From the NCBI GenBank assembly GCA_964511375.1, contig CAZEEW010000002.1, forward strand, positions 36,157-100,156: DNA of 64,000 nt. The letters are read 5' to 3'. The translations under genes were made by a program, and so were the position numbers. Below, in pieces: positions 19,657 through 39,793 of the stretch (positions are counted from its first letter, which is position 1; each line of letters begins with the position of its first letter). The notes under the pieces were generated by a model that was not told the origin of the DNA, ran no database searches, and saw only the letters and a program-made list of their open reading frames with translations. Source of the DNA: an uncultured Gammaproteobacteria bacterium (GTDB lineage Bacteria > Patescibacteriota > Patescibacteriia > Magasanikbacterales > GWA2-37-8).

Positions 19657-19825
19657 AGGGGCAGCTGTCCTTCGCCCCTCGATCTGAGGTATCGGGTCGA
19701 GGGCTGTGTCACGAGCGTCAAATGTTTTGGCTCTGGTGAAACCGTATTCATACACAGTTAATACACACAATTTTCGTTGACGAGACGATATATTTTGTTA
19801 TAATGATGAGGTAATTATTGAATTT

Positions 19826-25570: not shown

Positions 25571-25580
25571 TATTTAATAT

Positions 25581-25940: not shown

Positions 25941-25969
25941 ACTTTCTAAAATTTCTTTCTAATAATTCT

Positions 25970-26674: not shown

Positions 26675-26686
26675 TTTTCAACCTGT

Positions 26687-27100
26687 ATGTTAATACCAAA
26701 GAAAGTACAGCACCGTAAATGGCATAAAGGCCGCCGCCGTGGACTTGGTCTAGCCCAACGCGCCAATGGCGTTGATTTCGGTGAATTCGGTTTAAAGAGC
26801 GAAGACCATGGTCGTATCACTAGTCGTCAGATTGAATCTGCTCGTCGTGTTTTGACAAGATATGTTCGCCGTGGTGGAAAAATCTGGATTCGCATTTTTC
26901 CTGATCGTCCAATTACTAAAAAAGGTAATGAGACCCCGATGGGTGGTGGTAAAGGCGCTCCGGATCATTATGTTGCCGTGGTAAAACCAGGTACCGTTTT
27001 ATTCGAAATGGGTGGTATTACCAAAGAGTCAGCTAAGGAAGCAATGAATCTGGCTGGTTATAAATTTGGTGTTAAGACCAAATTCGTAGAAAGACAATAA
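26687..27100 (+). CDS. rplP: 50S ribosomal protein L16
   Basis: [16 protein letters not shown]. Confidence 0.95.
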
Positions 27101-27109
27101 TCTAAACTT

Positions 27110-27295
27110 ATGGATTACGCTGAATTAAAAAATAAAGGTGTCGCCGAACTGAATGAAATGTTAGGATCTTTGCGCGAAGAGGTTCGTGTTGCTAAAGCGG
27201 GGGCTCGCCTGGGTTCTTATCGACAAAATCATAAAATTAAAGAGTTACGCAAAACGATTGCTCGGATTAATTCCTTAATCAAGAGCACAAAATAA
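27110..27295 (+). CDS. rpmC: 50S ribosomal protein L29
   Basis: 61 aa, position and helical K/E composition. Confidence 0.85.
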   Translation: MDYAELKNKGVAELNEMLGSLREEVRVAKAGARLGSYRQNHKIKELRKTIARINSLIKSTK

Positions 27296-27296
27296 T

Positions 27297-27566
27297 TTGT
27301 ATACTATGGAAAAAACCGAGACAAAAAAAATGACCCGTGTAATTGAAGGTAAAGTGGTTTCTGCGAGCATGACAAAGACCATCACCGTTTTGGTTGAGAG
27401 CGTAAAAACCAACCTCAAGTATAAGAGAAAATATAAAACAACGAAGAAATTCCCAGTTCACGATGAAAAGGGTTTGGCTAAAGTTGGTGATGTTGTTCGC
27501 TTTATCGAATGCCGACCATTATCTAAGACCAAACGCTGGAGAATTTTCGAAGTGGTAAAGAAATAA
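27297..27566 (+). CDS. rpsQ: 30S ribosomal protein S17
   Basis: [14 protein letters not shown] motif. Confidence 0.92.
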
Positions 27567-27597
27567 TTATTATTCAAAAGTTTCTAGAGTTAAAAGT

Positions 27598-27969
27598 ATG
27601 ATCCAACACCGAACCATGTTGAATGTCGCCGATAACACTGGTGCTAAAAAGTTACAGTGCATCCGCGTTTTAGGTGGCTACAAAAAGCGTTATGCCCAAG
27701 TCGGAGACATTTTTACCGCTGTTGTTAAGGTCGCTGCTCCTCGTGGCATGGTTAAAAAGAGTGAAGTGGTACATGCGGTCGTTGTTCGCCAACACAAGGA
27801 GATTCGTCGACCCGATGGTACTTATATTCGTTTTGACGAAAATGCCGCGGTAATCGTCGATAAGAAATCAAAGGAACCAAAAGGTACACGTATTTTCGGC
27901 GGCGTTTGCCGTGAACTACGTGCTAAGGGATTCCAAAAGATCATTTCTTTAGCTCCGGAAGTTTTATAA
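27598..27969 (+). CDS. rplN: 50S ribosomal protein L14
   Basis: [17 protein letters not shown]. Confidence 0.95.
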
Positions 27970-27981
27970 CCAATTACCAAT

Positions 27982-28290
27982 ATGAAAATTAAAACTAACG
28001 ACCAAGTAAAAATTATTCAAGGCAAAGACCGCGGGAAAACCGGCAAGGTGATCCAGGTTTTTAAGGCTGAAAACAAAGTGGTCGTAGAAGGAATGAACAA
28101 AATTAAAAAACACCTCCGCGCTCGAAAGCAAGGCGAAAAAGGTCAGACTATTGAATTGTCTGCCCCCATGTCCGTGAGCAATGTGATGCTAGTTTGCGGA
28201 AAATGCCAAGCCGGAGCTCGCGTTGGTTATAAACTTGAAGGCGACAAAAAGATGCGTGTTTGCCGCAAGTGTAAAGAGGTAATTGACTAA
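27982..28290 (+). CDS. rplX: 50S ribosomal protein L24 (KOW + C-terminal CxxC…CxxC zinc ribbon)
   Basis: KIKTNDQVKIIQGKDRGKTGKV; CGKC…CRKC. Confidence 0.9.
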   Translation: MKIKTNDQVKIIQGKDRGKTGKVIQVFKAENKVVVEGMNKIKKHLRARKQGEKGQTIELSAPMSVSNVMLVCGKCQAGARVGYKLEGDKKMRVCRKCKEVID

Positions 28291-28296
28291 TCCTAT

Positions 28297-28839
28297 ATGA
28301 ATAACGCCTTATATCAACAATATAAAGAGAAGGTTGTCCCAGCTGTAATGACGGAGTTGAATTTAAAAAATCGCATGCAAGTGCCAAAAATCAAAAAAGT
28401 GGTTATCAATGTTGGTGTTGGTAAATTTGTAAAAGATACTGGTTATATCGATAACGTTGAAAAGACCCTTTTGAAAATTACTGGTCAGAAACCAGTGCGA
28501 ACCAAAGCGAAGAAAGCCATCTCCAACTTCAAGATCCGTGAAAACCAGGAGATTGGGGTGATGGTCACACTTCGTGGTCCACGCATGTATGACTTTTTAC
28601 AAAAATTGTTAGTGGTTACTTTTCCACGTGTTCGTGACTTTCATGGTATTTCTGACAAAGGTTTTGACCGCCAAGGAAATTTGACCATTGGTTTTAAGGA
28701 AAATGTTGCTTTCCCAGAAGTTAAGAACGATGAATTGGATAAGGTCCATGGTTTAGAAATTGTAATCAATACCAATGCCAAAGATCGTACTGCTGGAAAG
28801 GCATTATTAACTCACATGGGATTCCCTTTTATCAAATAA
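28297..28839 (+). CDS. rplE: 50S ribosomal protein L5
   Basis: Conserved L5 sequence, position. Confidence 0.93.
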   Translation: MNNALYQQYKEKVVPAVMTELNLKNRMQVPKIKKVVINVGVGKFVKDTGYIDNVEKTLLKITGQKPVRTKAKKAISNFKIRENQEIGVMVTLRGPRMYDFLQKLLVVTFPRVRDFHGISDKGFDRQGNLTIGFKENVAFPEVKNDELDKVHGLEIVINTNAKDRTAGKALLTHMGFPFIK

Positions 28840-28842
28840 GAT

Positions 28843-29028
28843 ATGGCGACACAAGCACAAAAAGCAAAATCCAATCGCAAACCAAAATTTTCCACTCGAG
28901 TTGTTCGTCGTTGTTGGAAATGTGGTCGAGGCCGTAGTGTGATTGGTAAATTCGAGCTCTGTCGTATTTGTTTTCGCGAATTAGCGAATGATGGAAAGAT
29001 TCCGGGTGTTCATAAATCTAGCTGGTAA
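28843..29028 (+). CDS. rpsZ: 30S ribosomal protein S14 type Z (zinc-binding)
   Basis: 61 aa, CWKCGRG…CRIC. Confidence 0.92.
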
Positions 29029-29067
29029 TTTATTTCTAAAAGCAATAATATATAATCACTTAATGTT

Positions 29068-29457
29068 ATGTTGACTGATCCTATCGCTGACATGTTAACC
29101 AGAATCCGCAATGCCTCTATGGCTCATAAGAAAGAGGTAGTGATGCCATTTTCCAAATTGAAATTGGCGATTGCGGAAATTTTGGTTCGCGAAGGCTATC
29201 TTTTAAAGGCCGAAGTAAGCGAAGAAAATCCAAAGACCTTAGCGGTTACTTTGAAATATAATCATGGTACCCCAGCTATCCAATCTTTGGTTCGCAAAAG
29301 TACTCCTGGCCACCGTCAATATGTAAAGAAGACGGAAATTAAGTCGGTTTTGAACGGCTATGGTTTGTCGATTTTATCTACTCCTGCCGGAATCAAGACT
29401 AACAAAGAGGCCATTAAAGAAAATGTTGGCGGCGAATTGCTTTGTGAAGTATATTAA
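29068..29457 (+). CDS. rpsH: 30S ribosomal protein S8
   Basis: MLTDPIADMLTRIRNA. Confidence 0.95.
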   Translation: MLTDPIADMLTRIRNASMAHKKEVVMPFSKLKLAIAEILVREGYLLKAEVSEENPKTLAVTLKYNHGTPAIQSLVRKSTPGHRQYVKKTEIKSVLNGYGLSILSTPAGIKTNKEAIKENVGGELLCEVY

Positions 29458-29468
29458 AGAATAATAAT

Positions 29469-30017
29469 ATGTCACGTATTGGAAAAAAAATTCGACCGAT
29501 TCCAACTGGAGTTACAGTCGAAATCAATAAAGTAAATTTGAAAGTTAAAGGGCCAAAAGGCGAATTAACTTTGAAATTACACCCTCGTGTAATCGTAACC
29601 CAAAAGGACAATAATTTAGAATTTTCTGTTCGGAATGAAAATGATAAGAACGAACGGGCACTTTGGGGTACTTTCTCCAGTCTAGTAAATAACATGATAG
29701 ACGGTGTAACCAACGGTTTTAAAAAAGAATTAGAAATTAATGGTGTTGGTTTCCGTGCTAGTATGAAAGGCCAAAATCTTAGTTTAGAAATTGGTTTTTC
29801 TCATCCGGTTGAAGTTAAACCAATGCCCGGAACTAGTTTGAAAGTAGAAAAGAACGTTATTACTGTTGAAGGAACAGATAAACAAGTAGTCGGTGAAATG
29901 GCCGCTATCATTCGGGGACTTAAGAAACCAGAGCCATATAAAGGTAAAGGTATTAAATATATGGATGAAGTGGTTCGTCGCAAGGCCGGTAAGACTGCCG
30001 CTAAGGGTGCTAAATAA
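29469..30017 (+). CDS. rplF: 50S ribosomal protein L6
   Basis: MSRIGKK…, two-domain L6. Confidence 0.93.
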   Translation: MSRIGKKIRPIPTGVTVEINKVNLKVKGPKGELTLKLHPRVIVTQKDNNLEFSVRNENDKNERALWGTFSSLVNNMIDGVTNGFKKELEINGVGFRASMKGQNLSLEIGFSHPVEVKPMPGTSLKVEKNVITVEGTDKQVVGEMAAIIRGLKKPEPYKGKGIKYMDEVVRRKAGKTAAKGAK

Positions 30018-30039
30018 TTAGGAACTAATAAGGATACAT

Positions 30040-30414
30040 ATGCGAAGAATTTTCAATAAATCTAAAAACAGTTTACGCCAAGTCCGTCACAGTCGCGTTC
30101 GTGCTCGTGTGGTAGGCTCAGCAACAATCCCGCGTTTATCGGTCTTTCGTGGTTTGCGCTCAATGGTCGCACAGTTAATTGATGACACTAAAGGTCAAAC
30201 TTTGTGCCAAGCTACTTCCAAGGAAGTGCAGGGCAAGAAAGCTGAAGGCCGAACTGGCAAGGTCGCAGAAAGCTATTTACTTGGTCAATTACTAGCTGAA
30301 AAAGCCAAAGCTAAAGGTGTTTCCGTCGTTGTCTTTGATCGTGGTGGTTACAGCTATCACGGCCGTGTGGCAGCTTTAGCTGACGGTGCTCGCGAAGGCG
30401 GCTTAAAATTCTAA
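30040..30414 (+). CDS. rplR: 50S ribosomal protein L18
   Basis: Position; …VFDRGGYSYHGRVAALADGAREGGLKF. Confidence 0.92.
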   Translation: MRRIFNKSKNSLRQVRHSRVRARVVGSATIPRLSVFRGLRSMVAQLIDDTKGQTLCQATSKEVQGKKAEGRTGKVAESYLLGQLLAEKAKAKGVSVVVFDRGGYSYHGRVAALADGAREGGLKF

Positions 30415-30428
30415 TAATTCTTTGAACT

Positions 30429-30908
30429 ATGAGTAAACCTTTAAGTAGAGGACGCCGTGATGGCCGACCAGTCGAGAAACCCGAGTTTGATCAAAATATT
30501 TTAGATCTTGCTCGTGTTACTCGTGTTACCGAAGGCGGCAAACATTTAAGTTTTCGCGCTTGTGTGGTCCTAGGTGATCGCAAGGGACGTGTAGGTATTG
30601 GCTTGGCCAAAGGTAAGGATGTGCAGCTTGGCGTTGAGAAAGCTGTGAACAAGGCCAAGAAAAGTATGATCCGCGTGCCAGTATTAAAAGAAACGATTCC
30701 CCACGCTGTTGTAAAGAAGTTTAAGGCAGCCAAAATTATGTTAAAGCCAGCACCTCCTGGTTCTGGTATTATTGCTGGTGGTGCTGTACGTGTTGTTCTT
30801 GAACTAGCCGGTGTACCTAATGTTTCTTCCAAAATTTTAGGTAAGACAAAAAATAAAATCTCAATTGCTAAAGCCACTTTCCAAGCTTTGCAGTTGTTTA
30901 AAAAATAA
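30429..30908 (+). CDS. rpsE: 30S ribosomal protein S5
   Basis: Conserved S5 domains; followed directly by L15 (no L30). Confidence 0.93.
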   Translation: MSKPLSRGRRDGRPVEKPEFDQNILDLARVTRVTEGGKHLSFRACVVLGDRKGRVGIGLAKGKDVQLGVEKAVNKAKKSMIRVPVLKETIPHAVVKKFKAAKIMLKPAPPGSGIIAGGAVRVVLELAGVPNVSSKILGKTKNKISIAKATFQALQLFKK

Positions 30909-30913
30909 TTATT

Positions 30914-31354
30914 ATGACTTTACGAGCCCATACCTTGAAACCGGCTCCGGGCGCCCGCCACTCTTTAAAGCGAGTTGGTCGTGGCAATGCCTCAGGACAC
31001 GGTAACTACTCTGGCCATGGTGGCAAGGGTCAAACCGCTCGCTCTGGTGGTAACGCTGGTTTGAAACTCAAAGGTTTTAAAATGTTGTTACAATCAACTC
31101 CAAAGCTACGTGGCTTCAAGAGTTTATCTAACAAACCACGCACCTTGACCTTAACGGACTTAGAAAAGAATTTTAATGAAGGTGAGGTAGTAACAATCGC
31201 AACTCTTCGTGAAAAGAAGGTTGTTGGTAAAACCGTTAGTGCTGTAAAAGTAGTTAATACCGGTGAATTGAAAAAGAAGTTAGTTCTTGAAGGTATTAAG
31301 ACTACTAAAACCGTAATGGAAAAAATCACGAGTTTAGGCGGTGAAGTTAAATAG
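30914..31354 (+). CDS. rplO: 50S ribosomal protein L15
   Basis: GRGNASGHGNYSGHGGKGQTARSG. Confidence 0.93.
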   Translation: MTLRAHTLKPAPGARHSLKRVGRGNASGHGNYSGHGGKGQTARSGGNAGLKLKGFKMLLQSTPKLRGFKSLSNKPRTLTLTDLEKNFNEGEVVTIATLREKKVVGKTVSAVKVVNTGELKKKLVLEGIKTTKTVMEKITSLGGEVK

Positions 31355-31391
31355 GGGATAAACATTTCCCCTTTTTCCTTATCTAATTACT

Positions 31392-32666
31392 ATGTGGGAA
31401 AAATTTAAACAAATTTGGCAGATTAAGGAATTACGAAACAAAATCTTATTTGTTCTTGCTCTTTTAGTTGTCTTCCGTCTGGTTGCTCATATTCCGATTC
31501 CTGGTGTAAATGTAGAGAATCTACGTAACTTTTTCCAAAGCAATCAGTTGCTTGGATTATTGAATGCGTTTACCGGTGGTACGATGGAAAACTTTTCTGT
31601 AGTCATGCTTGGTGTTGGCCCTTACATTACTGCTTCGATCATCTTCCAGCTTTTAGCGATGATCGTGCCGAAACTTGAAGAAATGACCAAAGAAGGCGAA
31701 TCTGGACAACAGAAAATTAACATGTACACTCGCTGGCTTACTGTTCCCTTAGCTTTTCTACAGGCTTATAGCATGATCAAGTTGTTAGGCCAGTCTTCTC
31801 AACCAATCATTGGAAATCTCGATACTTTCCAGTTTATTACTGTCATGTTAACCATTACCGCTGGTACCATGTTTCTTATGTGGATCGGTGAAATCATTAC
31901 TGAACAAAAGGTTGGTAATGGCATCTCTCTTTTAATCTTTGCTGGTATTGTGTCTGGTTTACCTGGCGCTGTACGTAATGTTTTTTTGAACTACACCTCA
32001 GCTGACCTTTACACCGTCATTCTCTTTGCGGCTATTGCGGTTCTAACTGTTGTTGGTGTTGTATTCATTAACGAAGGTCAAAGAAATATTCCGGTTAGCT
32101 ACGCTAAACAGGTCCGTGGTAACAAGATATATGGTGGTTCTAACACTCACTTGCCAATGCGCGTTAACATGGCTGGTGTTATCCCAATCATCTTTGCTAT
32201 CTCTTTAGTTTTGTTCCCGCCGATGATCGCACAATTCTTTGTAAACGCGAGAACGGCGTGGGTTGCTAACCTGGCTGAATGGGTTATTACTACTTTCCAG
32301 AATCAAGTTTTCTACGCTATTGCTTACTTCTTACTAGTTTTTGGTTTTACCTATTTCTACACTGCCGTCGTATTTCATCCTCAGAAGATTGCTGAGAATT
32401 TGCAAAAGCAAGGTGGTTTTATTCCTGGTATTCGACCGGGCAAAGAGACTGAGAACTACTTACATCGCACCATGAATCGCATTAACCTAATCGGAGCATT
32501 GTTTCTGGGTGTAATCGCCATCCTCCCTCTTATCTTACAAGGTGCTCTTGGTACACAAAGTCTAGCCATTGGTGGTACCAGTTTGCTGATCGTGGTGGCT
32601 GTTGCGATTGAAACAGCTAAGCAGATCGAAGCCCAGGTAACAATGCATGAGTACGATAGGATATAA
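31392..32666 (+). CDS. secY: Preprotein translocase subunit SecY
   Basis: 10-TM protein, position after L15. Confidence 0.95.
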   Translation: MWEKFKQIWQIKELRNKILFVLALLVVFRLVAHIPIPGVNVENLRNFFQSNQLLGLLNAFTGGTMENFSVVMLGVGPYITASIIFQLLAMIVPKLEEMTKEGESGQQKINMYTRWLTVPLAFLQAYSMIKLLGQSSQPIIGNLDTFQFITVMLTITAGTMFLMWIGEIITEQKVGNGISLLIFAGIVSGLPGAVRNVFLNYTSADLYTVILFAAIAVLTVVGVVFINEGQRNIPVSYAKQVRGNKIYGGSNTHLPMRVNMAGVIPIIFAISLVLFPPMIAQFFVNARTAWVANLAEWVITTFQNQVFYAIAYFLLVFGFTYFYTAVVFHPQKIAENLQKQGGFIPGIRPGKETENYLHRTMNRINLIGALFLGVIAILPLILQGALGTQSLAIGGTSLLIVVAVAIETAKQIEAQVTMHEYDRI

Positions 32667-32694
32667 TGACAAGACAGAACTAAAACTAGAAATC

Positions 32695-32735
32695 AAAAAC
32701 CCAGTACTATATAGTGCTGGGTTTTATTGTTTCGG
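32695..32735 (+). terminator. Terminator after secY (aaaaacccagtact-atat-agtgctgggttttattgtt); near-duplicate after asnS
   Basis: Stem + T-run; same frame aaaacccag…ctgggttttattgt as 37478-37512. Confidence 0.6.
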
Positions 32736-32741
32736 TTTATA

Positions 32742-32797
32742 CTTCTCGACTCTCCAGAAAAGTCTATCTTAAACTTCTCTGGAGTCCAGTCGAGAAG
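32742..32797. repeat. Imperfect ~20-bp-arm inverted repeat (cttctcgactctccaga … tctggagtccagtcgagaag) at edge of GC-rich islet 3
   Basis: Seen directly; no T-run, so not an obvious terminator. Confidence 0.5.
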
Positions 32798-32834
32798 CGC
32801 GGGGTGAAGGCGCGACGCGTCTGTCCTCCGCCCC

Positions 32835-33125
32835 TTAGGTCAAGAATGCCTCGAGCAGGGCTCTGACGATCGTTCGTCCGAGCTGGTTCTGCAGGGTCGG
32901 CATTGCCGAGCCCGTCATCCCGGCTAGGAAGAAAATCGCCGCAACCGCACCGAGCGCTACCCCGGTAAGGGGAGGGTGCGGAGGGTTCTTGAGTCCGTCG
33001 TTAATCGCTGCCGCAGTTGCGACAGCAAGCGTCAGTGCTCCTAGTACGGTCCAGATCATATTCTTTCCTCCTCTTGTTTCCGTTGCGAAACAGCCAACTT
33101 TATCACAAACTCCGCCCATTGTCAA
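32835..33125 (-). CDS. GC-rich islet 3: small two-TM membrane protein (74 aa from ATG at 33059 with AGGAGG SD; longer 96-aa ORF to 33125)
   Basis: ~62% GC block between secY and adk; strong SD; two hydrophobic helices with G/A-rich faces. Confidence 0.45.
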   Translation of the reverse strand: MTMGGVCDKVGCFATETRGGKNMIWTVLGALTLAVATAAAINDGLKNPPHPPLTGVALGAVAAIFFLAGMTGSAMPTLQNQLGRTIVRALLEAFLT

Positions 33126-33147
33126 GTCTAAAAACCTATGGTATAAT
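33119..33147 (+). promoter_or_regulatory. Sigma70-like promoter for adk (TTGTCA-17-TATAAT)
   Basis: ttgtcaagtctaaaaacctatggtataat. Confidence 0.5.
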
Positions 33148-33225
33148 CCTTTTTGTTGGAAATTAGGCTAAATATAGCCCATGCCCCTTTTGGGGCGTTT
33201 TTCTTTCAGAACATTAATTATTATC

Positions 33226-33885
33226 ATGAAAAAAGTAATAATTCTTATCGGTCCTCCTGGATCAGGTAAAGGTACGCAAGCTAAGAGATTGGCGGCTAAG
33301 TTTAGGTATGGACATATATCCACTGGAGATTTACTGCGTCGTTTAATGACGAAAGGAAATAACGAACCAGAAATTGAAGTAATCTTAGAAGAGGTGCGCT
33401 CCGGTAAACTTGCTCCTGATTGGCTTATTTACAAACTTGCCTTTGAAGAAATGGATAAATATCTAGACGAAGATAAAGGAGTTGTCCTAGACGGTGCAAT
33501 TCGTAATACACTCCAAGCAGAAAAGTACGAAGAATATTTTAAAAATAAAAATTTGGAAACCGAAGTGGTGGCAATCGAGATTGCTTTGTCCGACGAAGAA
33601 TCTTACAAGCGTCTAACTCGACGCAAGGTCTGCAACGGTTGTGGGGATATTGTTACCTGGACAAAATTTACCGGTCAGGTTGAAAAGTGTATTAAGTGTG
33701 GTGGCAACTTAGTCATTCGCATGGATGATAATCCGGAAACAGTGAAGAAGAGAATAGCGAGCCAAGGGAATGCTGCTATGGCCCCAATTGTCGATTTTTA
33801 TAGCAATCTAGGCCTGTTACAACGTGTTGATGGAGCAGTTAGCATCCCTGAGGTGGACAAACAAATCGAACAAGTGTTACAGTAA
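33226..33885 (+). CDS. adk: Adenylate kinase (zinc-lid type); ORF also open from 33181
   Basis: MKKVIILIGPPGSGKGTQA; lid CNGCGD…CIKCGG. Confidence 0.92.
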   Translation: MKKVIILIGPPGSGKGTQAKRLAAKFRYGHISTGDLLRRLMTKGNNEPEIEVILEEVRSGKLAPDWLIYKLAFEEMDKYLDEDKGVVLDGAIRNTLQAEKYEEYFKNKNLETEVVAIEIALSDEESYKRLTRRKVCNGCGDIVTWTKFTGQVEKCIKCGGNLVIRMDDNPETVKKRIASQGNAAMAPIVDFYSNLGLLQRVDGAVSIPEVDKQIEQVLQ

Positions 33886-33909
33886 AGTGGTAAAACTAAT
33901 CTTTATCCC

Positions 33910-34734
33910 ATGCTAATAAAGGCCAAAGAAGATATTAAATCCCTGGAAAAAAGCGGCAAAATCATTGGCGAAATTCTTGAAGAACTCGGTAAAATGTGTA
34001 AGGCTGGTGTTTCCACCTACGACATTGATGTTGCTGCCGAAAAAATGATTCTTGAAGCTGGTGGCCGTCCTGCTTTTAAAGGTTATTGTGCCTCTTCTAC
34101 CGACACTCCTTTTCCAGGTACGATTTGCGCTTCTTTAAATCATGAAATTGTTCATGGTATTCCTCGACCGGAAATTGTTTTAAAAAATGGAGACATTTTT
34201 ACGATTGACATTGGTATGGAATGGCCGTATGCTAAAAAGTCACGTGGTAAACAAAAACAAAAAAGAGGGGTGTATACCGACACCGCGATTACAGTCGCCA
34301 TTGGTGACATAAATGAAAAAGTGCAGAAATTGATGCGCGTGACCCAAGAAGCTTTAGAGATGGCTATTCAAGCTGTTGTACCTGGCCATACTATCGCGAG
34401 CATTGGTAAAGCCGTTGAAGAATACGTGAAAAGCCAAGGTAAATATGGGATTATTCGGGATTTAGTGGGACACGGTGTTGGTTATGCCGTGCATGAGGAA
34501 CCCCGTATTCCGAATTATTATGATCAGCGTTTAGAAAGCTGGCTAATCCAACCTGGTATGGTTTTAGCACTTGAGCCCATGATTGCACTCGGTGATCATC
34601 GAATTGCTTCTGGTGCCGACGGTTGGACCATTGAGACTCTCGATCGTTCGCTTTGTGCCCATTACGAGCACACTGTTGTTGTTACTAACAAGGGTTGCAA
34701 AGTAATTACTCGTCGACCAGAAGAATTAGTATGA
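33910..34734 (+). CDS. map: Methionine aminopeptidase type I
   Basis: Pita-bread fold with metal-ligand D/H/E motifs (GHGVG, EPM); position after adk. Confidence 0.9.
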   Translation: MLIKAKEDIKSLEKSGKIIGEILEELGKMCKAGVSTYDIDVAAEKMILEAGGRPAFKGYCASSTDTPFPGTICASLNHEIVHGIPRPEIVLKNGDIFTIDIGMEWPYAKKSRGKQKQKRGVYTDTAITVAIGDINEKVQKLMRVTQEALEMAIQAVVPGHTIASIGKAVEEYVKSQGKYGIIRDLVGHGVGYAVHEEPRIPNYYDQRLESWLIQPGMVLALEPMIALGDHRIASGADGWTIETLDRSLCAHYEHTVVVTNKGCKVITRRPEELV

Positions 34735-35117
34735 ACATTTTAGCTATTGATTTCGGGACAAAAAATATTGGTTTAGCTTGGGCGGACACTGGTATTGGCA
34801 CGGCTCTACCATTTGGTTTAGTAGATAGCCGAGATAAGGGAAAAAGGAATCGTGAATTAGAGAAACTGGTAGAAAGAGAAAGTATCGACAAAATTGTGAT
34901 TGGTTTACCGCTCGGCATGGATGGAAAAGAGAATGACAACACCGCCCGTGTTAGAAAATTTGCCGAGGAACTGGAAGAGTTTGTACCTGTCCCCATAGAT
35001 TTCTTTGATGAGCGCTTAAGTTCATATGAAGCTGATCGGGCTGGAGACACAGGAGTGTCTCGCGATGAAATGTCAGCGGTCGTAATCTTGAATGCCTATT
35101 TGGAGAAAATAAAATAA
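34731..35117 (+). CDS. ruvX: Holliday junction resolvase-like protein RuvX/YqgF
   Basis: MNILAIDFGTKNIGLAWAD; start overlaps map stop (ATGA). Confidence 0.85.
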   Translation: MNILAIDFGTKNIGLAWADTGIGTALPFGLVDSRDKGKRNRELEKLVERESIDKIVIGLPLGMDGKENDNTARVRKFAEELEEFVPVPIDFFDERLSSYEADRAGDTGVSRDEMSAVVILNAYLEKIK

Positions 35118-35118
35118 T

Positions 35119-35850
35119 ATGCAAGCCATTATCTTGCGTCGCCAAGATTTCCGGGAATATGATGAGATTATTACGTTATACACCCTAGAAGGAGGCAAAG
35201 TAAACGCCCTGGCGAGAAGCGTAAAAAAAATTACCAGTAAAAATTCGGCTCATCTTGAGCCTTTTTCTTTAGTCGAAGCGGAGATTATTAAGGGCCAGGA
35301 AGTCCAACATATTATTAAGGCCCGCGGTTTGAATATCTTCTTAGGCTTAAGAAACAATCTTAAGAAAATGTCCATGGCGGCATTTATTGTTCATCTTTTT
35401 GACCAGCTTTTAGAAGTGGGGGAAAGAGATGAACAGCTTTTTTATCTGCTGCAAAGTTGGTTGGAGTTTCTGGATGTTTGTCATACTCCAAATAATATCC
35501 TAGTTTTAGGCTTAGAGATTAAGTTACTGCAACGCTTAGGTTTTACACCAATTCTCGACGACTGTGGCTTGGACCATGAGCGCCTTGGAGAAACTAATTT
35601 CTTTTTTTACCCAGCTGGTGGGATGTTGCTTTGTGAAAGTTGCGCCAAATTTAAAAGACAAAGCAACGAGGAATTGGTTGTTTTTAATCGAGGTCTTCAA
35701 GATGGTTTGAAAGTTTTGTTATATGGTGATTGGAAGAAAATTAGTGAATTAACTTTGAGCGAAAAAGAGATGAAGCACTTAGAAATTTCAGTATACTTGT
35801 TTTTGCGTTACCACACAGAGAAAAAGATTATAAGATTTAAAGGAGTTTAA
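35119..35850 (+). CDS. recO: DNA repair protein RecO
   Basis: N-terminal OB region MQAIILRRQDFREYDEIITLYT, CxxC zinc motif. Confidence 0.8.
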   Translation: MQAIILRRQDFREYDEIITLYTLEGGKVNALARSVKKITSKNSAHLEPFSLVEAEIIKGQEVQHIIKARGLNIFLGLRNNLKKMSMAAFIVHLFDQLLEVGERDEQLFYLLQSWLEFLDVCHTPNNILVLGLEIKLLQRLGFTPILDDCGLDHERLGETNFFFYPAGGMLLCESCAKFKRQSNEELVVFNRGLQDGLKVLLYGDWKKISELTLSEKEMKHLEISVYLFLRYHTEKKIIRFKGV

Positions 35851-35858
35851 TTAGAGAA

Positions 35859-35880
35859 CCCCACGACCGTGGTCGTGGGG
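35859..35880. terminator. Perfect GC hairpin ccccacgacc-gt-ggtcgtgggg after recO; edge of GC-rich islet 4
   Basis: 10-bp perfect stem; no T-run. Confidence 0.45.
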
Positions 35881-35906
35881 GCTGTGGGCCTTGCGCTTGG
35901 ACGGGT

Positions 35907-36041
35907 TTAACCACCACAAGCTGCTCGCAGGGCCAGGACAATAAATCCGACGATGATCAGGGCGCCAATCGCCCTAAATATCCCGCCGAAGATGAGGCAG
36001 ATCAGGCCGAGCGCAAACCCGGCCAAAAACCAACTTAGCAT
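35907..36041 (-). CDS. GC-rich islet 4: 44-aa hydrophobic single/double-TM peptide (MLSWFLAGFALGLICLIFGGIFRAIGALIIVGFIVLALRAACGG); below the ORF-track size cutoff
   Basis: GGAGG 5 nt upstream of ATG; ~62% GC; translated by hand. Confidence 0.4.
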   Translation of the reverse strand: MLSWFLAGFALGLICLIFGGIFRAIGALIIVGFIVLALRAACGG

Positions 36042-36153
36042 TTGTCCCTCCTAGTCGCCTTATTGAATTTTATATCATTCTATCCTCTTCAGCAAAACTT
36101 GCTAAAATTAGCGAAAAATGGTAAGCTAAAAAGGCTTTAAGCTTTGAAAACAT

Positions 36154-37446
36154 ATGTATTCCCTAATAAAAGATTTATCTAAACATGTTGGTGAAGAAGT
36201 AGTAATAAAAGGGTGGTTGTATAACAAGCGTTCTTCTGGCCCGATTGCTTTTCTTGAACTTCGAGATGGTTATGGTTGGGTACAGGGCGTGGTTGTTAAA
36301 AACGACGTCTCTGAGAAAGTGTGGCAAGACGCTGAGAAATTAACACAAGAGTCTTCTCTTGAATTAGTCGGTGTTGTGACTAAACATCCTAAAAAGGAAA
36401 ATATTTTTGAACTCCAAGTTAAAGACATTAAAGTAATTCAAATATCAGGAGAATATCCAATTGCTTTAAAAGAACATGGCCCGGACTTTTTAATGGATAA
36501 CCGTCATTTGTGGCTAAGAAGTAAAAAACAATGGGCGCTCTTACGTCTCAGGGATGCAATTATTACTGCTGTTAATGAATATCTGCATCAAGAGAATTTT
36601 ATTAAAGTTGATTCACCGATTTTTACACCAAATGCTTGTGAAGGCACAACCACATTATTCCCGGTGCCATATTTTGATCTTGGTACAGCTTATTTGTCTC
36701 AATCCGGTCAGTTGTATATTGAGGCTGCTATTGCTTCCGTTGGCCGTTGTTATGACTTTGGTCCAGTGTTTCGCGCCGAGAAGAGTAAGACCAAGCGCCA
36801 TTTAACCGAATTTTGGATGATGGATGCCGAAGGTGCCTTTATGGAGCATGAGGATAATTTAAAAAACCAAGAGGGTTTAGTACGTTATGTCGTACGTTAC
36901 GTTTTAGAACATTGTGATGAAGAATTAACTGTAATGGAAAGAGATAAAGAAAGATTGCGTCAAGCTGATGCTCCATTTACACGATTGACATATGACCAAG
37001 CGATTGAAAAACTTCATGAATTAGGATCAGATATTAAGTACGGTGAAGATCTGGGTAATGACGATGAAGGTCTTTTGACCAAAGATAGTGTTGTGCCAGT
37101 GTTTATTGAAAAATGGCCGAAAAGTATTAAGCCGTTTTACATGAAGCGTGACCCAAATAATGCTGAGCTGGTTTTAAATGACGACCTAATTGCCACCGAT
37201 GGTGGGGGAGAATTAATTGGTGGTAGCCAGCGCGAAGATAATTTTGATCTTTTGCTTGAACGTATTAAACATGAAGGCCTCCCAGTGGAAGATTATGAGT
37301 GGTATTTAGATTTACGTCGCTACGGCGCAGTGCCACATTCAGGATTTGGTATTGGTCTAGAACGCACTGTGCGCTGGATCTCTGGTACCGAACACATTCG
37401 TGAGTGTATCCCATTCCCGAGGACGATTGGAAGATTGAAACCGTAA
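36154..37446 (+). CDS. asnS: Asparaginyl-tRNA synthetase (class IIb)
   Basis: Motif 2 FRAEKSKTKRHLTEFWMMDAE, motif 3 GFGIGLERTV, 430 aa. Confidence 0.8.
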   Translation: MYSLIKDLSKHVGEEVVIKGWLYNKRSSGPIAFLELRDGYGWVQGVVVKNDVSEKVWQDAEKLTQESSLELVGVVTKHPKKENIFELQVKDIKVIQISGEYPIALKEHGPDFLMDNRHLWLRSKKQWALLRLRDAIITAVNEYLHQENFIKVDSPIFTPNACEGTTTLFPVPYFDLGTAYLSQSGQLYIEAAIASVGRCYDFGPVFRAEKSKTKRHLTEFWMMDAEGAFMEHEDNLKNQEGLVRYVVRYVLEHCDEELTVMERDKERLRQADAPFTRLTYDQAIEKLHELGSDIKYGEDLGNDDEGLLTKDSVVPVFIEKWPKSIKPFYMKRDPNNAELVLNDDLIATDGGGELIGGSQREDNFDLLLERIKHEGLPVEDYEWYLDLRRYGAVPHSGFGIGLERTVRWISGTEHIRECIPFPRTIGRLKP

Positions 37447-37477
37447 CGAGAAAAGGAGCATTAAAGTTCAAGAAACA

Positions 37478-37512
37478 AAAACCCAGCGCTAATTGCACTG
37501 GGTTTTATTGTG
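37478..37512 (+). terminator. Terminator after asnS (aaaacccagcgc-taatt-gcactgggttttattgt)
   Basis: Near-duplicate of secY terminator. Confidence 0.6.
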
Positions 37513-37525
37513 TTCCTTGATCTTA

Positions 37526-37583
37526 CGCTTCGCAGTTGATCTGAAATAACAATTGTTATTATCTCAGACCGACACTGCGAAGC
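37526..37583. repeat. Inverted repeat cgcttcgcagt … actgcgaagc enclosing a perfect 16-bp palindrome AATAACAATTGTTATT (37545-37560)
   Basis: Seen directly; operator-like symmetric site at the edge of GC-rich islet 5. Confidence 0.6.
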
Positions 37584-37612
37584 ATCGGACGCGCACACGC
37601 GCATGTTGGGGA

Positions 37613-38002
37613 TCAGAATCGGAGGGGGGTCGATGCCAGCTTGTCCCGTAAGTCCTTGAGGACCTGGTTTCGGTAGGGGAAGTACTCTGACCCGGTGCTG
37701 AGCTCGAGCCACATGCACCGCTCGCCGTGCTGTAGGTAGACTTCTACCGCGTCGTTGGAACAGCTTGGTGCACACCAGGGATCGATCTTGTACATCTCTG
37801 GGATGCGATCGAAGCTGTTCTCCAGCGCGTAGAAGACACCCTTGTCACAGTAAGACTTGACGACGAGCAGACGCCCTTCAGTTTGCGAGCGCAGAACTTG
37901 GTTGCTCTCGCGGTACAGCCGTGGACAAAACCACCCGAACAAGAACCAGATCACCGCGATCGTCGTCGCCGTCTTCATCGCCGCCGAGGTAAGCCTTTTC
38001 AT
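37613..38002 (-). CDS. GC-rich islet 5: 129-aa signal-anchored/secreted protein with 4+ Cys
   Basis: GGAG 7 nt upstream of ATG; N-terminal hydrophobic MKTATTIAVIWFLFGWF; ~60% GC. Confidence 0.45.
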   Translation of the reverse strand: MKRLTSAAMKTATTIAVIWFLFGWFCPRLYRESNQVLRSQTEGRLLVVKSYCDKGVFYALENSFDRIPEMYKIDPWCAPSCSNDAVEVYLQHGERCMWLELSTGSEYFPYRNQVLKDLRDKLASTPLRF

Positions 38003-38119
38003 CACTTAACTCCATGCGCCATCCAGGCGCTCTGTTGTCGAGGAACAAGTGATTATAGCAAAGAGAGAGAGAGTTGTCAAGATGGTCTAACAGAATTGTC
38101 TTTAATATTACCCAAAAAA

Positions 38120-38156
38120 TAACAAAACAAGCCTGGTTTCGAGGCTTGTTTTTTAT
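38120..38156. terminator. Bidirectional terminator (caagcct-ggtttcg-aggcttg) after metallophosphoesterase gene
   Basis: 7-bp stem with A-run upstream and T-run downstream. Confidence 0.65.
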
Positions 38157-38168
38157 CCTTTTTCGCTA

Positions 38169-39132: not shown

Positions 39133-39705
39133 TTAATCTTTGACTAGTTTAATCAATTTAATAAAAATGTCAGTATTTTTTGAAATACGAATATTATATC
39201 TAATTTTACCTTTTGTTTTGATTTTGTAAAGATGTGCTGGTATAGAAAGAGATTCTAACATTTTCATTACATCTCGAGCTAAGTTAGGTATCATAGACAC
39301 AAAATTTACCATTTTGTATCCTCTGTCGATATATATTGACCCGTCTGTTTGGAATAAACCACGTAAACATTCAATTACTGTTTGTTCCTTTTTCATAATC
39401 CAGGTTGGAACCGACACTCCTTGTTTTTCTTTTGATCCACCTAGGGTTTTCCAGCCTAATAAACTTTCCCATTTGTTAGAATAGCAGCTTATATCTTTGC
39501 AATTTCTTTTAATGTTAATTATGTTAACTTTATTCCTTGGCATAAATGATCTTAAGGAATCGGCTATTGTTCGGATTAAATTCGGGTACTTAAGATCACA
39601 GGAAATTCTAAGACGGACCGCCCTACGATTAGGGTTAGAAAGATTGCCGTCCCCAAGTGCAAGGCCGGTAATATACGCCAGAAGCTTTTCCTCCTTTTTA
39701 AGCAT
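39133..39705 (-). CDS. Free-standing double-motif LAGLIDADG homing endonuclease
   Basis: Two LAGLIDADG motifs: LAYITGLALGDGNL and LRGLFQTDGSI; 190 aa; starts 7 nt after tRNA-Leu 3' end. Confidence 0.8.
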   Translation of the reverse strand: MLKKEEKLLAYITGLALGDGNLSNPNRRAVRLRISCDLKYPNLIRTIADSLRSFMPRNKVNIINIKRNCKDISCYSNKWESLLGWKTLGGSKEKQGVSVPTWIMKKEQTVIECLRGLFQTDGSIYIDRGYKMVNFVSMIPNLARDVMKMLESLSIPAHLYKIKTKGKIRYNIRISKNTDIFIKLIKLVKD

Positions 39706-39711
39706 AAGTCG

Positions 39712-39793
39712 TGCCGATGGTGGGAATCGAACCCACAGGCCTTACGGCACACGATTTTGAGTCGTGCATGTTTACCAATTTCATCACATCGGC
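39712..39793 (-). tRNA. tRNA-Leu (anticodon CAA), type II with long variable arm
   Basis: Hand-folded: acceptor GCCGATG/CATCGGC, anticodon stem CACGA/TCGTG, loop CTCAAAA, variable hairpin GCC-GTAA-GGC, T-arm GTGGG-TTCGATT-CCCAC; CCA not encoded. Confidence 0.75.

What the first reader, a model, noticed from the sequence alone, without database searches (positions are those of the whole stretch)
35859..36045. Islet 4: 44-aa hydrophobic peptide gene hidden below the ORF-track size cutoff
Hand translation of the minus strand gives MLSWFLAGFALGLICLIFGGIFRAIGALIIVGFIVLALRAACGG with GGAGG-N5-ATG. It lies in a 190-bp GC-rich patch just after a perfect 10-bp GC hairpin that ends recO. Size and composition resemble type I toxin or small membrane regulator peptides.
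Basis: seen in the sequence. Interest (0 to 1): 0.5.

Follow-up and report, generated by a model that had tools for sequence, protein, structure and literature searches.

The report
Small membrane-peptide gene on GC-rich cassette
The 44-codon reading frame is very probably a real gene for a tiny membrane peptide. It belongs to a previously unrecorded family seen so far in only two related groundwater-type CPR bacteria, and it sits on a compact GC-rich insert between two housekeeping genes; what the peptide does (a toxin-like role is the leading guess) is untested.

Summary
ORF 35907-36041(-) encodes MLSWFLAGFALGLICLIFGGIFRAIGALIIVGFIVLALRAACGG, preceded by GGAGGG-N4-ATG, inside a 195-bp patch of 59% GC flanked by 30-31% GC DNA. 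The window comes from a Candidatus Magasanikbacteria (CPR) genome.

An ORF of this length alone is not significant (44% of shuffles). ORF plus Shine-Dalgarno site (SD) plus this hydrophobicity never occurs in 5000 shuffles.

The decisive evidence is a syntenic relative (L085; AsnS 94% identical, synonymous sites saturated). Its recO-asnS gap holds two uncalled tandem homologues, 43 and 47 aa, on the same antisense strand. Each has an SD-like purine-rich stretch before its start and its own hairpin with a T-rich tail. All three copies are extremely hydrophobic in the same frame and end in ACGG-stop.

The 10-bp hairpin is the peptide gene's own terminator, not recO's. More distant relatives have a tight, AT-rich recO-asnS junction, so the islet is a lineage-specific insert.

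Host genes here almost never use an SD. The islet is one of at least five GC-rich single-gene islets, four of them SD-led, and one of them occupies different intergenic sites in the two genomes.

No known family matches and no antisense promoter was found. Most likely it is a new small membrane peptide, possibly like a type I toxin.

The parts
36077..36105 (-). Promoter-like element for the peptide gene: TTAGCA-N17-TAGAAT. It overlaps an extended -10-like TG-n-TATAAA at 36069-36077.
   Evidence: Consensus scan, coordinates verified. TTAGCA is also present upstream of L085 ORF A, and the block GAATGATATAA (36070-36080) is shared with the upstream region of L085 ORF B. Such matches are not enriched over shuffles, so promoter function is inferred, not shown.
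36046..36051 (-). Shine-Dalgarno site GGAGGG, 4 nt before the ATG (GGAGG-N5-ATG).
   Evidence: L085 ORF A has a canonical GGGAGG before its ATG; ORF B has GGGAAGGGGG before GTG or AGGAG before an alternative TTG. 0 of 58 host genes in the window have GGAGG or AGGAG.
35907..36041 (-). 44-aa ORF including the stop codon: MLSWFLAGFALGLICLIFGGIFRAIGALIIVGFIVLALRAACGG. Two hydrophobic stretches are joined by GGIFRA, and the C-terminus is ACGG.
   Evidence: Homologues: L085 ORF A and ORF B. Called as a 44-aa gene in NCBI and Logan records. AlphaFold single-sequence model: helix 2-42, pLDDT 92.
35886..35924 (-). Stop-codon hairpin. The last codons (GCU UGU GGU GGU) pair with CCGUC..CAAGC just downstream, leaving UAA in the 6-nt loop UUAAAC.
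   Evidence: MFE -12.2 kcal/mol, z = -1.1. The same architecture is predicted in L085 ORF B (GGCGG-UUAAAC-CCGCC) and strongly in ORF A (16 bp, z = -5.2). The A-to-B difference is compensatory (GGUGG/CCACC versus GGCGG/CCGCC).
35881..35906 (-). C-rich 3' UTR, ACCCGTCCAAGCGCAAGGCCCACAGC.
   Evidence: Together with the hairpin it is 76% identical to the 3' UTR of L085 ORF B, although synonymous sites between the two genomes are saturated. It is therefore under purifying selection.
35847..35880 (-). Intrinsic-terminator-like hairpin CCCCACGACC-AC-GGTCGTGGGG (35859-35880) with the tail TTCTCTAATTAA on the minus strand.
   Evidence: (I6). The orthologous hairpin in L085 is CCCCTCCGACC-AC-GGTCGGAGGGG with tail CTTCTGTTTA, reached by compensatory change. 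ORF A has its own GCCCCCAC-TTCA-GTGGGGGC with tail TTGTGTTTTT. There is no T-tract on the recO strand.
36099..36127 (+). Neighbouring divergent asnS promoter-like element, TTGCTA-N17-(TG)G-TAAGCT, back to back with the peptide promoter.
   Evidence: Read from the sequence. The asnS-proximal flank is 80% identical to L085 despite saturated neutral divergence. Function is inferred.

Best explanation
It is a real, translated gene for a small integral membrane peptide, carried on a compact self-contained unit of about 250 bp: promoter-like element, strong Shine-Dalgarno site, 44-codon ORF, stop-codon hairpin, C-rich 3' UTR and intrinsic terminator. The unit was inserted, antisense, into the normally tight recO-asnS junction of one small Magasanikbacteria clade.

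Shown:
- The gene-like anatomy.
- Three homologous copies in two genomes that keep an open, extremely hydrophobic frame, an SD-like purine-rich stretch before the start, a stop-codon hairpin and a terminator, although neutral sites are saturated.
- Absence of the insert from more distant relatives.
- Composition (GC3 0.64 against 0.31-0.41 for host genes) and a translation signal that are foreign to the host.

Inferred:
- The peptide inserts into the cytoplasmic membrane as two short helices joined by a turn (GGIFRA, LGK or PWPGWQAP in the three copies), with the conserved Cys-Gly-Gly end on the same side as the N-terminus.
- Its level is kept low by mRNA structure and by antisense read-through from recO, because the hairpin has no T-tract on the recO strand.

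Function: my best single guess, at about 0.3, is a type I-toxin-like membrane-perturbing peptide. A benign small membrane modulator is about equally likely. The confidence given below is for 'real small membrane-peptide gene on a lineage-specific insert', not for the toxin role.
For: Anatomy.

Chance tests:
- ORF plus SD plus hydrophobicity in 0 of 5000 shuffles; phase bias p = 6e-4.
- Hydropathy of each of the three copies is reached in at most 1 of 20000 shuffles, and every other frame is far less hydrophobic (mean hydropathy at most 0.21 against 1.30-2.21).

Homologues:
- L085 gap 6616-7213 holds ORF A (43 aa) and ORF B (47 aa) on the antisense strand.
- Identity to the target is 39% and 29%; IG.L and ACGG are invariant.
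- A profile of the three finds only these copies in about 0.9 Mb of related loci.

Divergence and constraint:
- Genome divergence: AsnS 94% and RecO 71% identical; pS 0.72-0.75, i.e. saturated.
- In the peptide pN is about 0.5, below pS of about 0.75; 29 of 40 ungapped columns are hydrophobic or small in all three copies.
- The 3' UTR plus hairpin is 76% identical, and the terminator stem changes are compensatory.

Insertion: the recO-asnS gap is 1-156 bp and AT-rich in 14 relatives.

Foreign signals: 0 of 58 host genes have GGAGG or AGGAG, while islet ORFs 2-5 all have a canonical SD core; host GC3 is 0.31-0.41 against 0.64.

Independent assembly: a Logan assembly of SRR5011273 is 100% identical over 12.4 kb and calls the 44-aa gene.

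Toxin-like traits, judged against Fozo et al. 2010: tandem or single copy, under 60 aa, TM region, similarity beyond the CDS.
Against: - Only two genomes and three copies, and no transcript, ribosome-footprint or peptide data.
- The peptide sequence evolves almost as fast as neutral sites, so conventional dN/dS cannot be computed.
- The invariant ACGG end is confounded by an RNA hairpin built from the same codons, with one compensatory change.
- Host genes in this window almost never use an SD, and about half of Parcubacteria reportedly lack the 16S anti-SD motif (PMC9297842), so efficient translation in this host is not assured.
- The promoter match is not above chance.

Specifically against the toxin reading:
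- No hit to any toxin family.
- No charged or bulky C-terminal cluster.
- No conserved antisense promoter.
- SD-sequestering fold-back is significant only in the window copy.
Confidence: 0.72

Rival explanations
1. It is a real small membrane protein with a benign role: an accessory subunit or regulator of a membrane complex, or a stress or envelope peptide, in the manner of AcrZ, MgtS, KdpF or CydX. It would be neither toxic nor RNA-antagonised.
For: It shares the coding evidence of the best explanation. No antitoxin RNA signal was found. The C-terminus lacks the charged or bulky cluster typical of type I toxins (criteria). The conserved Cys near the C-terminus and the Gly-rich helices (8 Gly in 44 aa, including GxxxG at residues 8-12) suit helix-helix packing with a partner; this last point is inference from the sequence.
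Against: - Known accessory peptides usually lie inside the operon of the complex they serve. This gene is a stand-alone antisense insert between recO and asnS.
- It is absent from all but one small clade.
- It evolves very fast (pN about 0.5) and is duplicated in tandem in the relative. These traits are more typical of selfish or conflict-related genes.
Confidence: 0.3
2. The conserved and functional thing is nucleic-acid structure, not a peptide. On this view the islet is a structured RNA or DNA element: either the end of a mobile element, or a bidirectional 3'-end and terminator module for recO. The hydrophobic ORF would then be incidental.
For: The non-coding 3' UTR and hairpins are more conserved (76%) than the CDS (about 53% DNA identity). 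A stop-codon hairpin is present in all three copies, with a compensatory change. The neighbouring islet-5 cassette likewise has non-coding ends better conserved than its CDS. ORFs of this length are common in GC-rich DNA (44% of shuffles).
Against: - All three copies keep an open frame of 43-47 codons that starts after an SD-like purine-rich stretch and is extremely hydrophobic (at most 1 of 20000 shuffles). Codon position 2 has A in 0-4 codons and T in 19-27, although synonymous sites are saturated.
- ORF A is not adjacent to recO, yet it has the same gene architecture and its own terminator.
- T-tracts follow the hairpins only on the peptide strand.
- There is no Rfam match in the islet, and no covariation support beyond the hairpins (covariation term +0.9).
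Confidence: 0.1
3. It is a recently acquired, non-expressed piece of foreign GC-rich DNA (a horizontal-transfer remnant) that happens to contain a small donor gene. It would be silent because the host does not use SD-led initiation.
For: GC content, GC3 and the SD are all foreign to the host. The peptide is an ORFan in 5.8 billion and 1.84 billion protein libraries. Larger GC-rich genes of ordinary enzyme families (OTCase, RNase J, NUDIX, 2OG oxygenase) occupy the same junctions in relatives.
Against: - The insert predates the split of two genomes whose synonymous sites are saturated. It has nevertheless kept its frame, its SD-like start signal, its hairpins and its high GC3 (0.64-0.70) instead of decaying toward the host's 0.31-0.46.
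- It has also been duplicated, or reduced from a pair, in tandem.
- No donor was found in plasmid, phage, viral or metagenome searches.
Confidence: 0.06

Closest known systems
Chromosomal type I toxin genes found as tandem or single small hydrophobic ORFs in intergenic regions (for example z3289/z3290 = ZorO, Ibs and Ldr of E. coli; Fst-like toxins). Search criteria are in Fozo et al. 2010, PMC2887945.
   Same: - 43-47 aa and highly hydrophobic, with a predicted TM helix or helices.
- Own promoter-like element, strong SD and own terminator.
- Two tandem copies in one intergenic region in one genome, a single copy in a sister genome, and none, with a correspondingly short spacer, in other relatives.
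- Similarity extends beyond the CDS.
- Missed by gene callers.

   Different: - No sequence match to any toxin family.
- No conserved antisense or divergent sRNA promoter.
- The C-terminus is Arg/Gln-x-Ala-Cys-Gly-Gly, not a cluster of charged or bulky residues.
- SD sequestration by a conserved fold-back is not demonstrated.
- Toxicity is untested.
- The library search for type I toxin-antitoxin systems in CPR bacteria returned no paper.
Bacterial small membrane proteins that modulate larger complexes (AcrZ, MgtS, KdpF, CydX; reviewed in PMC10730256).
   Same: Size, hydrophobicity, helical prediction, and being overlooked by annotation.
   Different: Those genes are normally encoded with, or co-regulated with, their partner complex and are conserved across wide clades. 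This gene is a stand-alone, antisense, clade-restricted, fast-evolving insert.
Pfam DUF3040 (a small two-TM membrane protein family of unknown function) and DUF3566.
   Same: There is a weak profile similarity of residues 4-38 to the C-terminal TM part of DUF3040 (E = 0.12). A 13-residue identity run (FGGIF.AIGA.I) matches DUF3566 proteins from GC-rich metagenome contigs.
   Different: The DUF3040 score is far below its gathering cut-off (13.1 against 24.7 bits). The DUF3566 match is confined to the residues the search pattern demanded, so it is a selected chance match.
Single-gene mobile cassettes with structured 3' ends, such as integron cassettes with attC sites or MITE/PATE-like elements carrying a passenger ORF.
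   Same: - A compact one-gene unit whose 3' end carries conserved imperfect palindromes.
- The cargo is often an ORFan or a small protein.
- A sister cassette (P0002/P0004) occupies different intergenic sites in two genomes, with conserved non-coding ends.
   Different: - The cassettes are dispersed singly, not in an array next to an integrase.
- They carry their own promoters.
- No attC R'/R'' architecture, terminal inverted repeats, target-site duplication, transposase or integrase was identified.
- The islets share no sequence with one another.

Membership tests
Type I toxin-antitoxin system (toxin component) | Small (under 60-70 aa), highly hydrophobic protein with a predicted transmembrane region. 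| tested here: met
   44 aa, mean Kyte-Doolittle hydropathy 2.04, only two charged residues. AlphaFold predicts a helix over residues 2-42. Criteria from PMC2887945.
Type I toxin-antitoxin system (toxin component) | Tendency to tandem duplication within one intergenic region, with presence or absence and copy number varying between relatives and similarity extending beyond the CDS. | tested here: met
   L085 has ORF A and ORF B in tandem in the recO-asnS gap, the window has one copy, and 14 relatives have none, with a 1-156 bp gap. The 3' UTR is 76% identical.
Type I toxin-antitoxin system (toxin component) | [quoted passage not shown] | tested here: inconclusive
   There is no sigma-70-like promoter on the antisense strand in the window. 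One weak antisense match in L085 ORF B (TTGCCA-16-AAGAAT) is not conserved in the other copies. Read-through from recO could supply antisense RNA, but that is inference. Consensus scans cannot exclude an sRNA; RNA-seq is needed.
Type I toxin-antitoxin system (toxin component) | [quoted passage not shown] | tested here: not met
   The C-termini are LRAACGG, VRGACGG and WQACGG: one basic or aromatic residue followed by small residues.
Type I toxin-antitoxin system (toxin component) | Growth arrest or membrane damage on overexpression. | not testable with these tools
   This requires an inducible-expression experiment.
Known type I toxin sequence families (Hok/Gef, Ldr, Fst, Ibs, TisB, ShoB, TxpA and others, as represented in Pfam and NCBIfam) | A significant profile match. 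| tested here: not met
   Pfam at E up to 1 returned only DUF3040 (0.12) and DUF7322 (0.65). NCBIfam returned only MPN565 (0.14, 11.8 bits against a 130-bit cut-off). PHROGs and PADLOC returned nothing.
Pfam DUF3040 | Score at or above the gathering threshold (24.7 bits). | tested here: not met
   13.1 bits, E = 0.12, and only the TM part of the model is matched.
Structured non-coding RNA (any Rfam family) | A covariance-model match, or covariation-supported structure without coding constraint. | tested here: not met
   There is no Rfam match in the islet at gathering score or at E up to 10. Fold z-scores are only -2.2 and -1.9 and are driven by the terminator. The alifold covariation term is +0.9. 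A strong protein-frame signal is present.
Integron gene cassette / attC | An attC site with R''/L''-L'/R' inverted cores at the cassette's 3' end, cassettes arranged in arrays, and usually a nearby intI. | tested here: inconclusive
   Imperfect palindromes follow the ORFs. However, no RYYYAAC...GTTRRRY pairing architecture was recognised by eye, the islets are dispersed, and no integrase was seen in the parts of the window examined. No dedicated attC model was available.

The most novel reading that the evidence does not exclude
The 44-aa gene may be one example of an undescribed class of GC-rich, Shine-Dalgarno-led, self-contained single-gene cassettes (promoter, 5' UTR, ORF, structured 3' end). 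On this reading the cassettes colonise, and relocate among, a few intergenic 'landing pads' such as recO-asnS, secY-adk and asnS-downstream in Magasanikbacteria genomes. They usually lie antisense to housekeeping operons whose own genes do not use SD-led initiation. Their non-coding ends and high GC3 would be held by selection while their membrane or secreted protein cargo evolves rapidly, suggesting a selfish or conflict-related mobile gene pool in CPR bacteria.
Probability: 0.25. Interest if true: 0.75.

Novelty: new member of a known kind. Interest (0 to 1): 0.52.

Why it matters
Small membrane peptides are almost unexplored in CPR/Patescibacteria, which are organisms with tiny genomes and an episymbiotic lifestyle in which membrane-active or surface factors are likely to matter. 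This locus offers three things.

1. A concrete, conserved, testable small-protein family that standard annotation and billion-scale protein libraries essentially miss.
2. A candidate type I toxin-like gene in this group, for which the literature search here found no report.
3. A window onto a broader pattern, in which compositionally foreign, SD-led mini-genes sit in the junctions of core operons of a genome that otherwise does not use SD-led initiation, and keep their high GC content over long divergence.

If that broader pattern holds up, it bears on how reduced genomes acquire and express accessory genes, and on whether the ribosomes of these organisms still read SD signals.

Tried and rejected
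1. Homology searches with the peptide. The word-indexed 5.8-billion library and index-free HMMER on 1.84 billion representatives returned only the query itself. Homologues existed but were either uncalled or too short and divergent to score.
2. A degenerate DNA pattern for FGGIFRAIGA in metagenome contigs gave four hits. All are one DUF3566 gene from about 57% GC organisms, with similarity limited to the selected 13 residues, so I rejected them as a chance match and not a donor. The viral collection gave none.
3. Plasmid and phage BLAST of the islet DNA found no match.
4. Exact-sequence look-ups of the peptide, RecO and ParA found nothing. L14 found only an identical Logan assembly of the same organism.
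5. The idea that the islets are repeats of one element was rejected: they share no DNA or protein similarity.
6. A non-coding RNA reading has no Rfam support and only weak fold z-scores.
7. A hok-like SD:3'UTR fold-back is significant only in the window copy (p = 0.04) and not in ORF A or B (p about 0.66), so it is left as inconclusive.
8. I guessed that the window held the L11-L10 cluster and could reveal uL1 loss, which would act as a proxy for anti-SD loss. That was wrong: those ORFs are a sigma factor, a cytochrome b5-like protein and a cupin.
9. A lipoprotein lipobox at Cys15 was rejected: position -1 is Ile, and the Cys is not conserved in the homologues (reading).
10. An assembly-chimera explanation for the islets was rejected. 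A second, independent assembly (same organism, possibly the same reads) gives the identical sequence, and a second genome has the homologous inserts.
11. PDB sequence search found nothing. A fold search on a single-helix model was judged meaningless and was not run.
Full report
OBSERVATION

GGAGGG lies at 36051-36046, and an in-frame TAG three codons upstream fixes the start. The GC-rich patch 35859-36053 is 59% GC, between flanks of 30% and 31%. The perfect 10-bp inverted repeat CCCCACGACC/GGTCGTGGGG is at 35859-35880 and begins 9 nt after the recO stop codon (I6). The flanking genes are recO (35119-35850, RecO_N and RecO_C) and asnS (36154-37446), both on the plus strand.

IS IT MORE THAN CHANCE?

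An ORF of at least 44 codons appears in 44% of dinucleotide-preserving shuffles of the patch, so length alone is worthless. With an SD 4-10 nt upstream the figure is 4.5%. With an SD and mean hydropathy of at least 1.5 it is 0 of 5000. Codon position 2 carries no A in 44 codons and T in 23 (phase chi-square p = 6e-4). The other five frames are far less hydrophobic (mean hydropathy 0.02 down to -2.11, against 2.04).

ORGANISM AND ANCESTRAL STATE

AsnS finds Candidatus Magasanikbacteria / Patescibacteria MAGs, at best 81% identity among species representatives. In 14 of these relatives recO and asnS are adjacent, separated by an AT-rich spacer of 1-156 bp. In others the junction holds unrelated inserts. 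None has the peptide by tblastn. The islet is therefore a lineage-specific insertion into a recurrently used junction.

THE DECISIVE COMPARISON

The peptide itself is an ORFan in the 5.8-billion and 1.84-billion protein libraries. The neighbouring islet-5 protein P0002, however, has one homologue, P0004 (58% identity). The contig carrying P0004, L085, is syntenic with the window: r-protein operon, secY, adk, map, ruvX, recO, asnS, metallophosphoesterase, parAB.

Protein identities are AsnS 94%, SecY 96% and RecO 71%, and synonymous sites are saturated (pS 0.72-0.75).

The recO-asnS gap in L085 (6616-7213) has no called gene on that contig, but it contains two tandem small ORFs on the strand antisense to recO and asnS:
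- ORF A: MSVLTFFAIGIVLFILWTILGKFIGFLIFIAIFLLIVRGACGG (43 aa; GGGAGG-N5-ATG).
- ORF B: (V/M)GPGEYILAILVSFVLAISPWPGWQAPIGILAVLFFFGWAIWQACGG (47 aa from GTG; alternative TTG start after AGGAG).

They are 39% and 29% identical to the target, with IG.L and the C-terminal ACGG invariant. A profile of the three copies recovers only these copies in all 90 loci fetched plus the window.

Each copy is as hydrophobic as at most 1 in 20000 shuffles of its own sequence, and 29 of 40 ungapped columns are hydrophobic or small in all three. A at codon position 2 occurs 0, 1 and 4 times; T occurs 23, 27 and 19 times. pN is about 0.5, below pS of about 0.75. This is what a peptide constrained mainly for hydrophobicity, length and a few positions looks like. 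It is hard to obtain from non-coding DNA at saturating divergence.

By its flanks the window copy is the orthologue of ORF B: the -10 block GAATGATATAA is shared, and the 3' UTR plus hairpin is 76% identical. The asnS-proximal flank is shared with the region upstream of ORF A at 80%. So L085 has gained a copy, or the window lineage has lost one.

An independent Logan assembly of run SRR5011273 reproduces window 25553-37969 exactly and calls the 44-aa gene. ORF A is called only in another Logan assembly. The 'hidden below the size cut-off' remark is therefore fair.

THE HAIRPINS

The 10-bp hairpin has its T-rich tail (TTCTCTAATT) on the minus strand; on the recO strand it is followed by GCTGTGGG.

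In L085 the orthologous stem is CCCCTCCGACC/GGTCGGAGGGG, reached by compensatory change, with tail CTTCTGTTTA. ORF A has its own terminator, GCCCCCAC-TTCA-GTGGGGGC plus TTGTGTTTTT. The hairpin is therefore the peptide gene's terminator. Because it lacks a T-tract on the recO strand, recO transcripts may read through it as antisense RNA. That last step is inference.

A second, unexpected structure appears in all three copies. The last codons (UGU GGY GGY) form the 5' arm of a hairpin with the stop codon in its loop:
- Window: GGUGG-UUAAAC-CCGUC inside GCUUG/CAAGC.
- ORF B: GGCGG-UUAAAC-CCGCC.
- ORF A: a 16-bp stem, -34 kcal/mol, z = -5.2.

The A-to-B difference is compensatory. The invariance of ACGG therefore cannot be credited to the protein alone.

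OTHER RNA-LEVEL TESTS

- Rfam finds nothing in the islet.
- Whole-transcript fold z-scores are -2.2 and -1.9.
- The alifold covariation term is +0.9.
- SD pairing with the 3' UTR beats shuffles only in the window copy.
- No conserved antisense promoter exists.

CONTEXT: FOREIGN SIGNALS AND SISTER ISLETS

The window (41.6% GC) has five clear GC islets: 8127-8553, 18671-19761, 32739-33089, 35833-36066 and 37547-38054. Each carries one ORF with GC3 of 0.59-0.78, against 0.31-0.41 for host genes. Four of the ORFs are on the minus strand, and the islets are mutually unrelated.

Host genes almost never have an SD. None of 58 has GGAGG or AGGAG, and 5 of 58 have any 4-mer core. Instead CTAAT (14 observed against 1.3 expected) and TAATT are enriched upstream of starts, including inside the r-protein operon. 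Islet ORFs 2-5, by contrast, all have a canonical SD core. A hypergeometric estimate computed by hand from the counts gives p of about 2e-4.

Tsurumaki et al. 2022 report that the 16S anti-SD motif is detected in only 48% of Parcubacteria (PMC9297842). The 16S gene of this genome is not in the window, so whether its ribosome reads GGAGG is open. Retention of a G-rich SD-like stretch in all three copies across saturating divergence argues that it does.

The P0002/P0004 cassette is conserved from its -35 box through a 5' UTR hairpin, SD, CDS (dN/dS about 0.23) and a 3' palindrome of about 65 nt. Yet it lies downstream of asnS in the window and between secY and adk in L085. The secY-adk junction is empty (37-184 bp) in six relatives and filled in others; L003 and L004 carry minus-strand GC-rich ORFs there (L004's with a GGAG upstream).

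Relatives' islet ORFs mostly lack Pfam families. A few are ordinary enzymes: OTCase, RNase J, NUDIX and a 2OG oxygenase. GC3 stays high in islet genes of both genomes despite saturation, so GC-richness is maintained and is not a fading transfer signature.

MECHANISM

Shown:
- A compact gene with all the canonical bacterial expression signals.
- Protein-level constraint for a hydrophobic peptide of about 45 aa.
- Constraint on the 3' UTR and terminator.

Inferred:
- Membrane insertion. AlphaFold without an alignment gives one helix over residues 2-42 at pLDDT 92, which single-sequence models tend to do for hydrophobic peptides.
- The Gly/Pro/basic centre of the three copies (GGIFRA, LGK, PWPGWQAP) suggests a helix-turn-helix hairpin instead.

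For function I weigh two readings about equally: a type I-toxin-like membrane-perturbing peptide and a benign membrane modulator.
- For the toxin reading: tandem or single or absent distribution, stand-alone antisense placement, fast evolution, strong SD, structured UTRs, and the match to the discovery heuristics of Fozo et al. 2010 (PMC2887945).
- Against it: no toxin-family match, no antitoxin RNA signal, and an atypical C-terminus.

KNOWN FAMILIES

No membership can be claimed:
- DUF3040 scores E = 0.12, below its cut-off.
- The DUF3566 metagenome hits are an artefact of the search pattern.
- PDB, PHROGs and PADLOC give nothing for the family.
- The held literature has no paper combining type I toxin-antitoxin systems with CPR bacteria, and none describing GC-rich intergenic islets in Patescibacteria.

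VERDICT

- Confidence that it is a real translated gene: about 0.7.
- Confidence in the toxin function specifically: about 0.3.
- Novelty: a new member of a known kind (small hydrophobic or toxin-like bacterial peptides).
- The broader pattern of relocatable, SD-led GC-rich cassettes is the more novel reading. It rests on two genomes and needs wider sampling.

Noticed in passing
whole window; for example upstream of 8685, 25970, 30429, 31392, 33910, 51296, 59660(-): Host genes almost never have a Shine-Dalgarno sequence (0 of 58 with GGAGG or AGGAG). Instead CTAAT (14 observed against 1.3 expected) and TAATT (18 against 2.7) are enriched within about 20 nt upstream of starts, including inside the ribosomal-protein operon. 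This points to a non-SD initiation signal in this Magasanikbacteria genome (compare PMC9297842).
   Followed up: partly
window 8127-8553, 18671-19761, 32739-33089, 37547-38054: Four further GC-rich islets (56-62% GC in a 41.6% GC window), each with one ORF of high GC3.
- 103-aa basic protein on the minus strand.
- 304-aa acidic protein P0003 on the plus strand (ORFan).
- 74-aa two-TM protein P0006 on the minus strand, wedged between secY and adk.
- 129-aa protein P0002 on the minus strand, with an N-terminal hydrophobic segment and six cysteines, behind a perfect TTGACA-17-TG-TATAAT promoter at 38080-38052.
All lack family matches and are unrelated to one another.
   Followed up: partly
window 37447-38168(-) versus L085 9829-10570(+): The islet-5 cassette (P0002/P0004) is conserved across about 600 bp, from its -35 box to a 3' palindrome of about 65 nt (GCTTCGCAGT...ACTGCGAAGC); the whole 755-column alignment, flanks included, has 81% mean column identity. 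It lies downstream of asnS in the window but between secY and adk in the sister genome. Its non-coding ends are better conserved than its protein (58-60% aa identity, dN/dS about 0.23). This suggests that the islets relocate as units.
   Followed up: partly
L003 1659-2228(-), L004 918-1322(-), L009 3697-4509(-), L019 3588-3911(+), L029 4648-4923(-), L038 2178-4880(+), L040 3242-3895(+): In relatives, the recO-asnS and secY-adk junctions are either tight and AT-rich or filled with unrelated GC-rich ORFs, several of them SD-led. One example is a 91-aa two-TM ORF in L029 at the same place and in the same orientation as the target. These junctions look like recurrent insertion hotspots.
   Followed up: partly
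window 35886-35924(-); L085 7139-7177(+), 6838-6882(+): In all three family copies a hairpin encloses the stop codon in its loop, and its 5' arm is made of the final Cys-Gly-Gly codons. In ORF A the stem is 16 bp (z = -5.2). One compensatory change separates ORF A from ORF B. Its function is unknown, and it confounds the protein-level reading of the conserved ACGG end.
   Followed up: yes
window 32690-32725 and 37478-37506: Two host-type bidirectional terminators, abutting islets 3 and 5, share nearly the same sequence: AACAATAAAACCCAG-loop-CTGGGTTTTTG. They may be a repeated terminator family, or part of the landing site for the islets.
   Followed up: no
window 39133-39705(-) and 39711-39793(-): A free-standing 190-aa LAGLIDADG-domain ORF sits immediately next to tRNA-Leu(CAA). 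That tRNA is a conserved neighbour of this region in many relatives.
   Followed up: no
window 7243-8055(+): A 270-aa probable secreted protein built of repeated Cys-rich modules (approximately ...N[AS]QC..GK.CVN..CVPAET...), just upstream of islet 1.
   Followed up: no
L081-L084 (metagenome contigs Ga0209648_10000267, WNFJ01111881.1, WNFT01031038.1, Ga0209648_10000611): A 101-aa DUF3566 membrane protein from organisms of about 57% GC contains FGGIFSAIGAVI, nearly identical to residues 18-29 of the target. I judged this a pattern-selected coincidence, because nothing outside that run aligns.
   Followed up: yes
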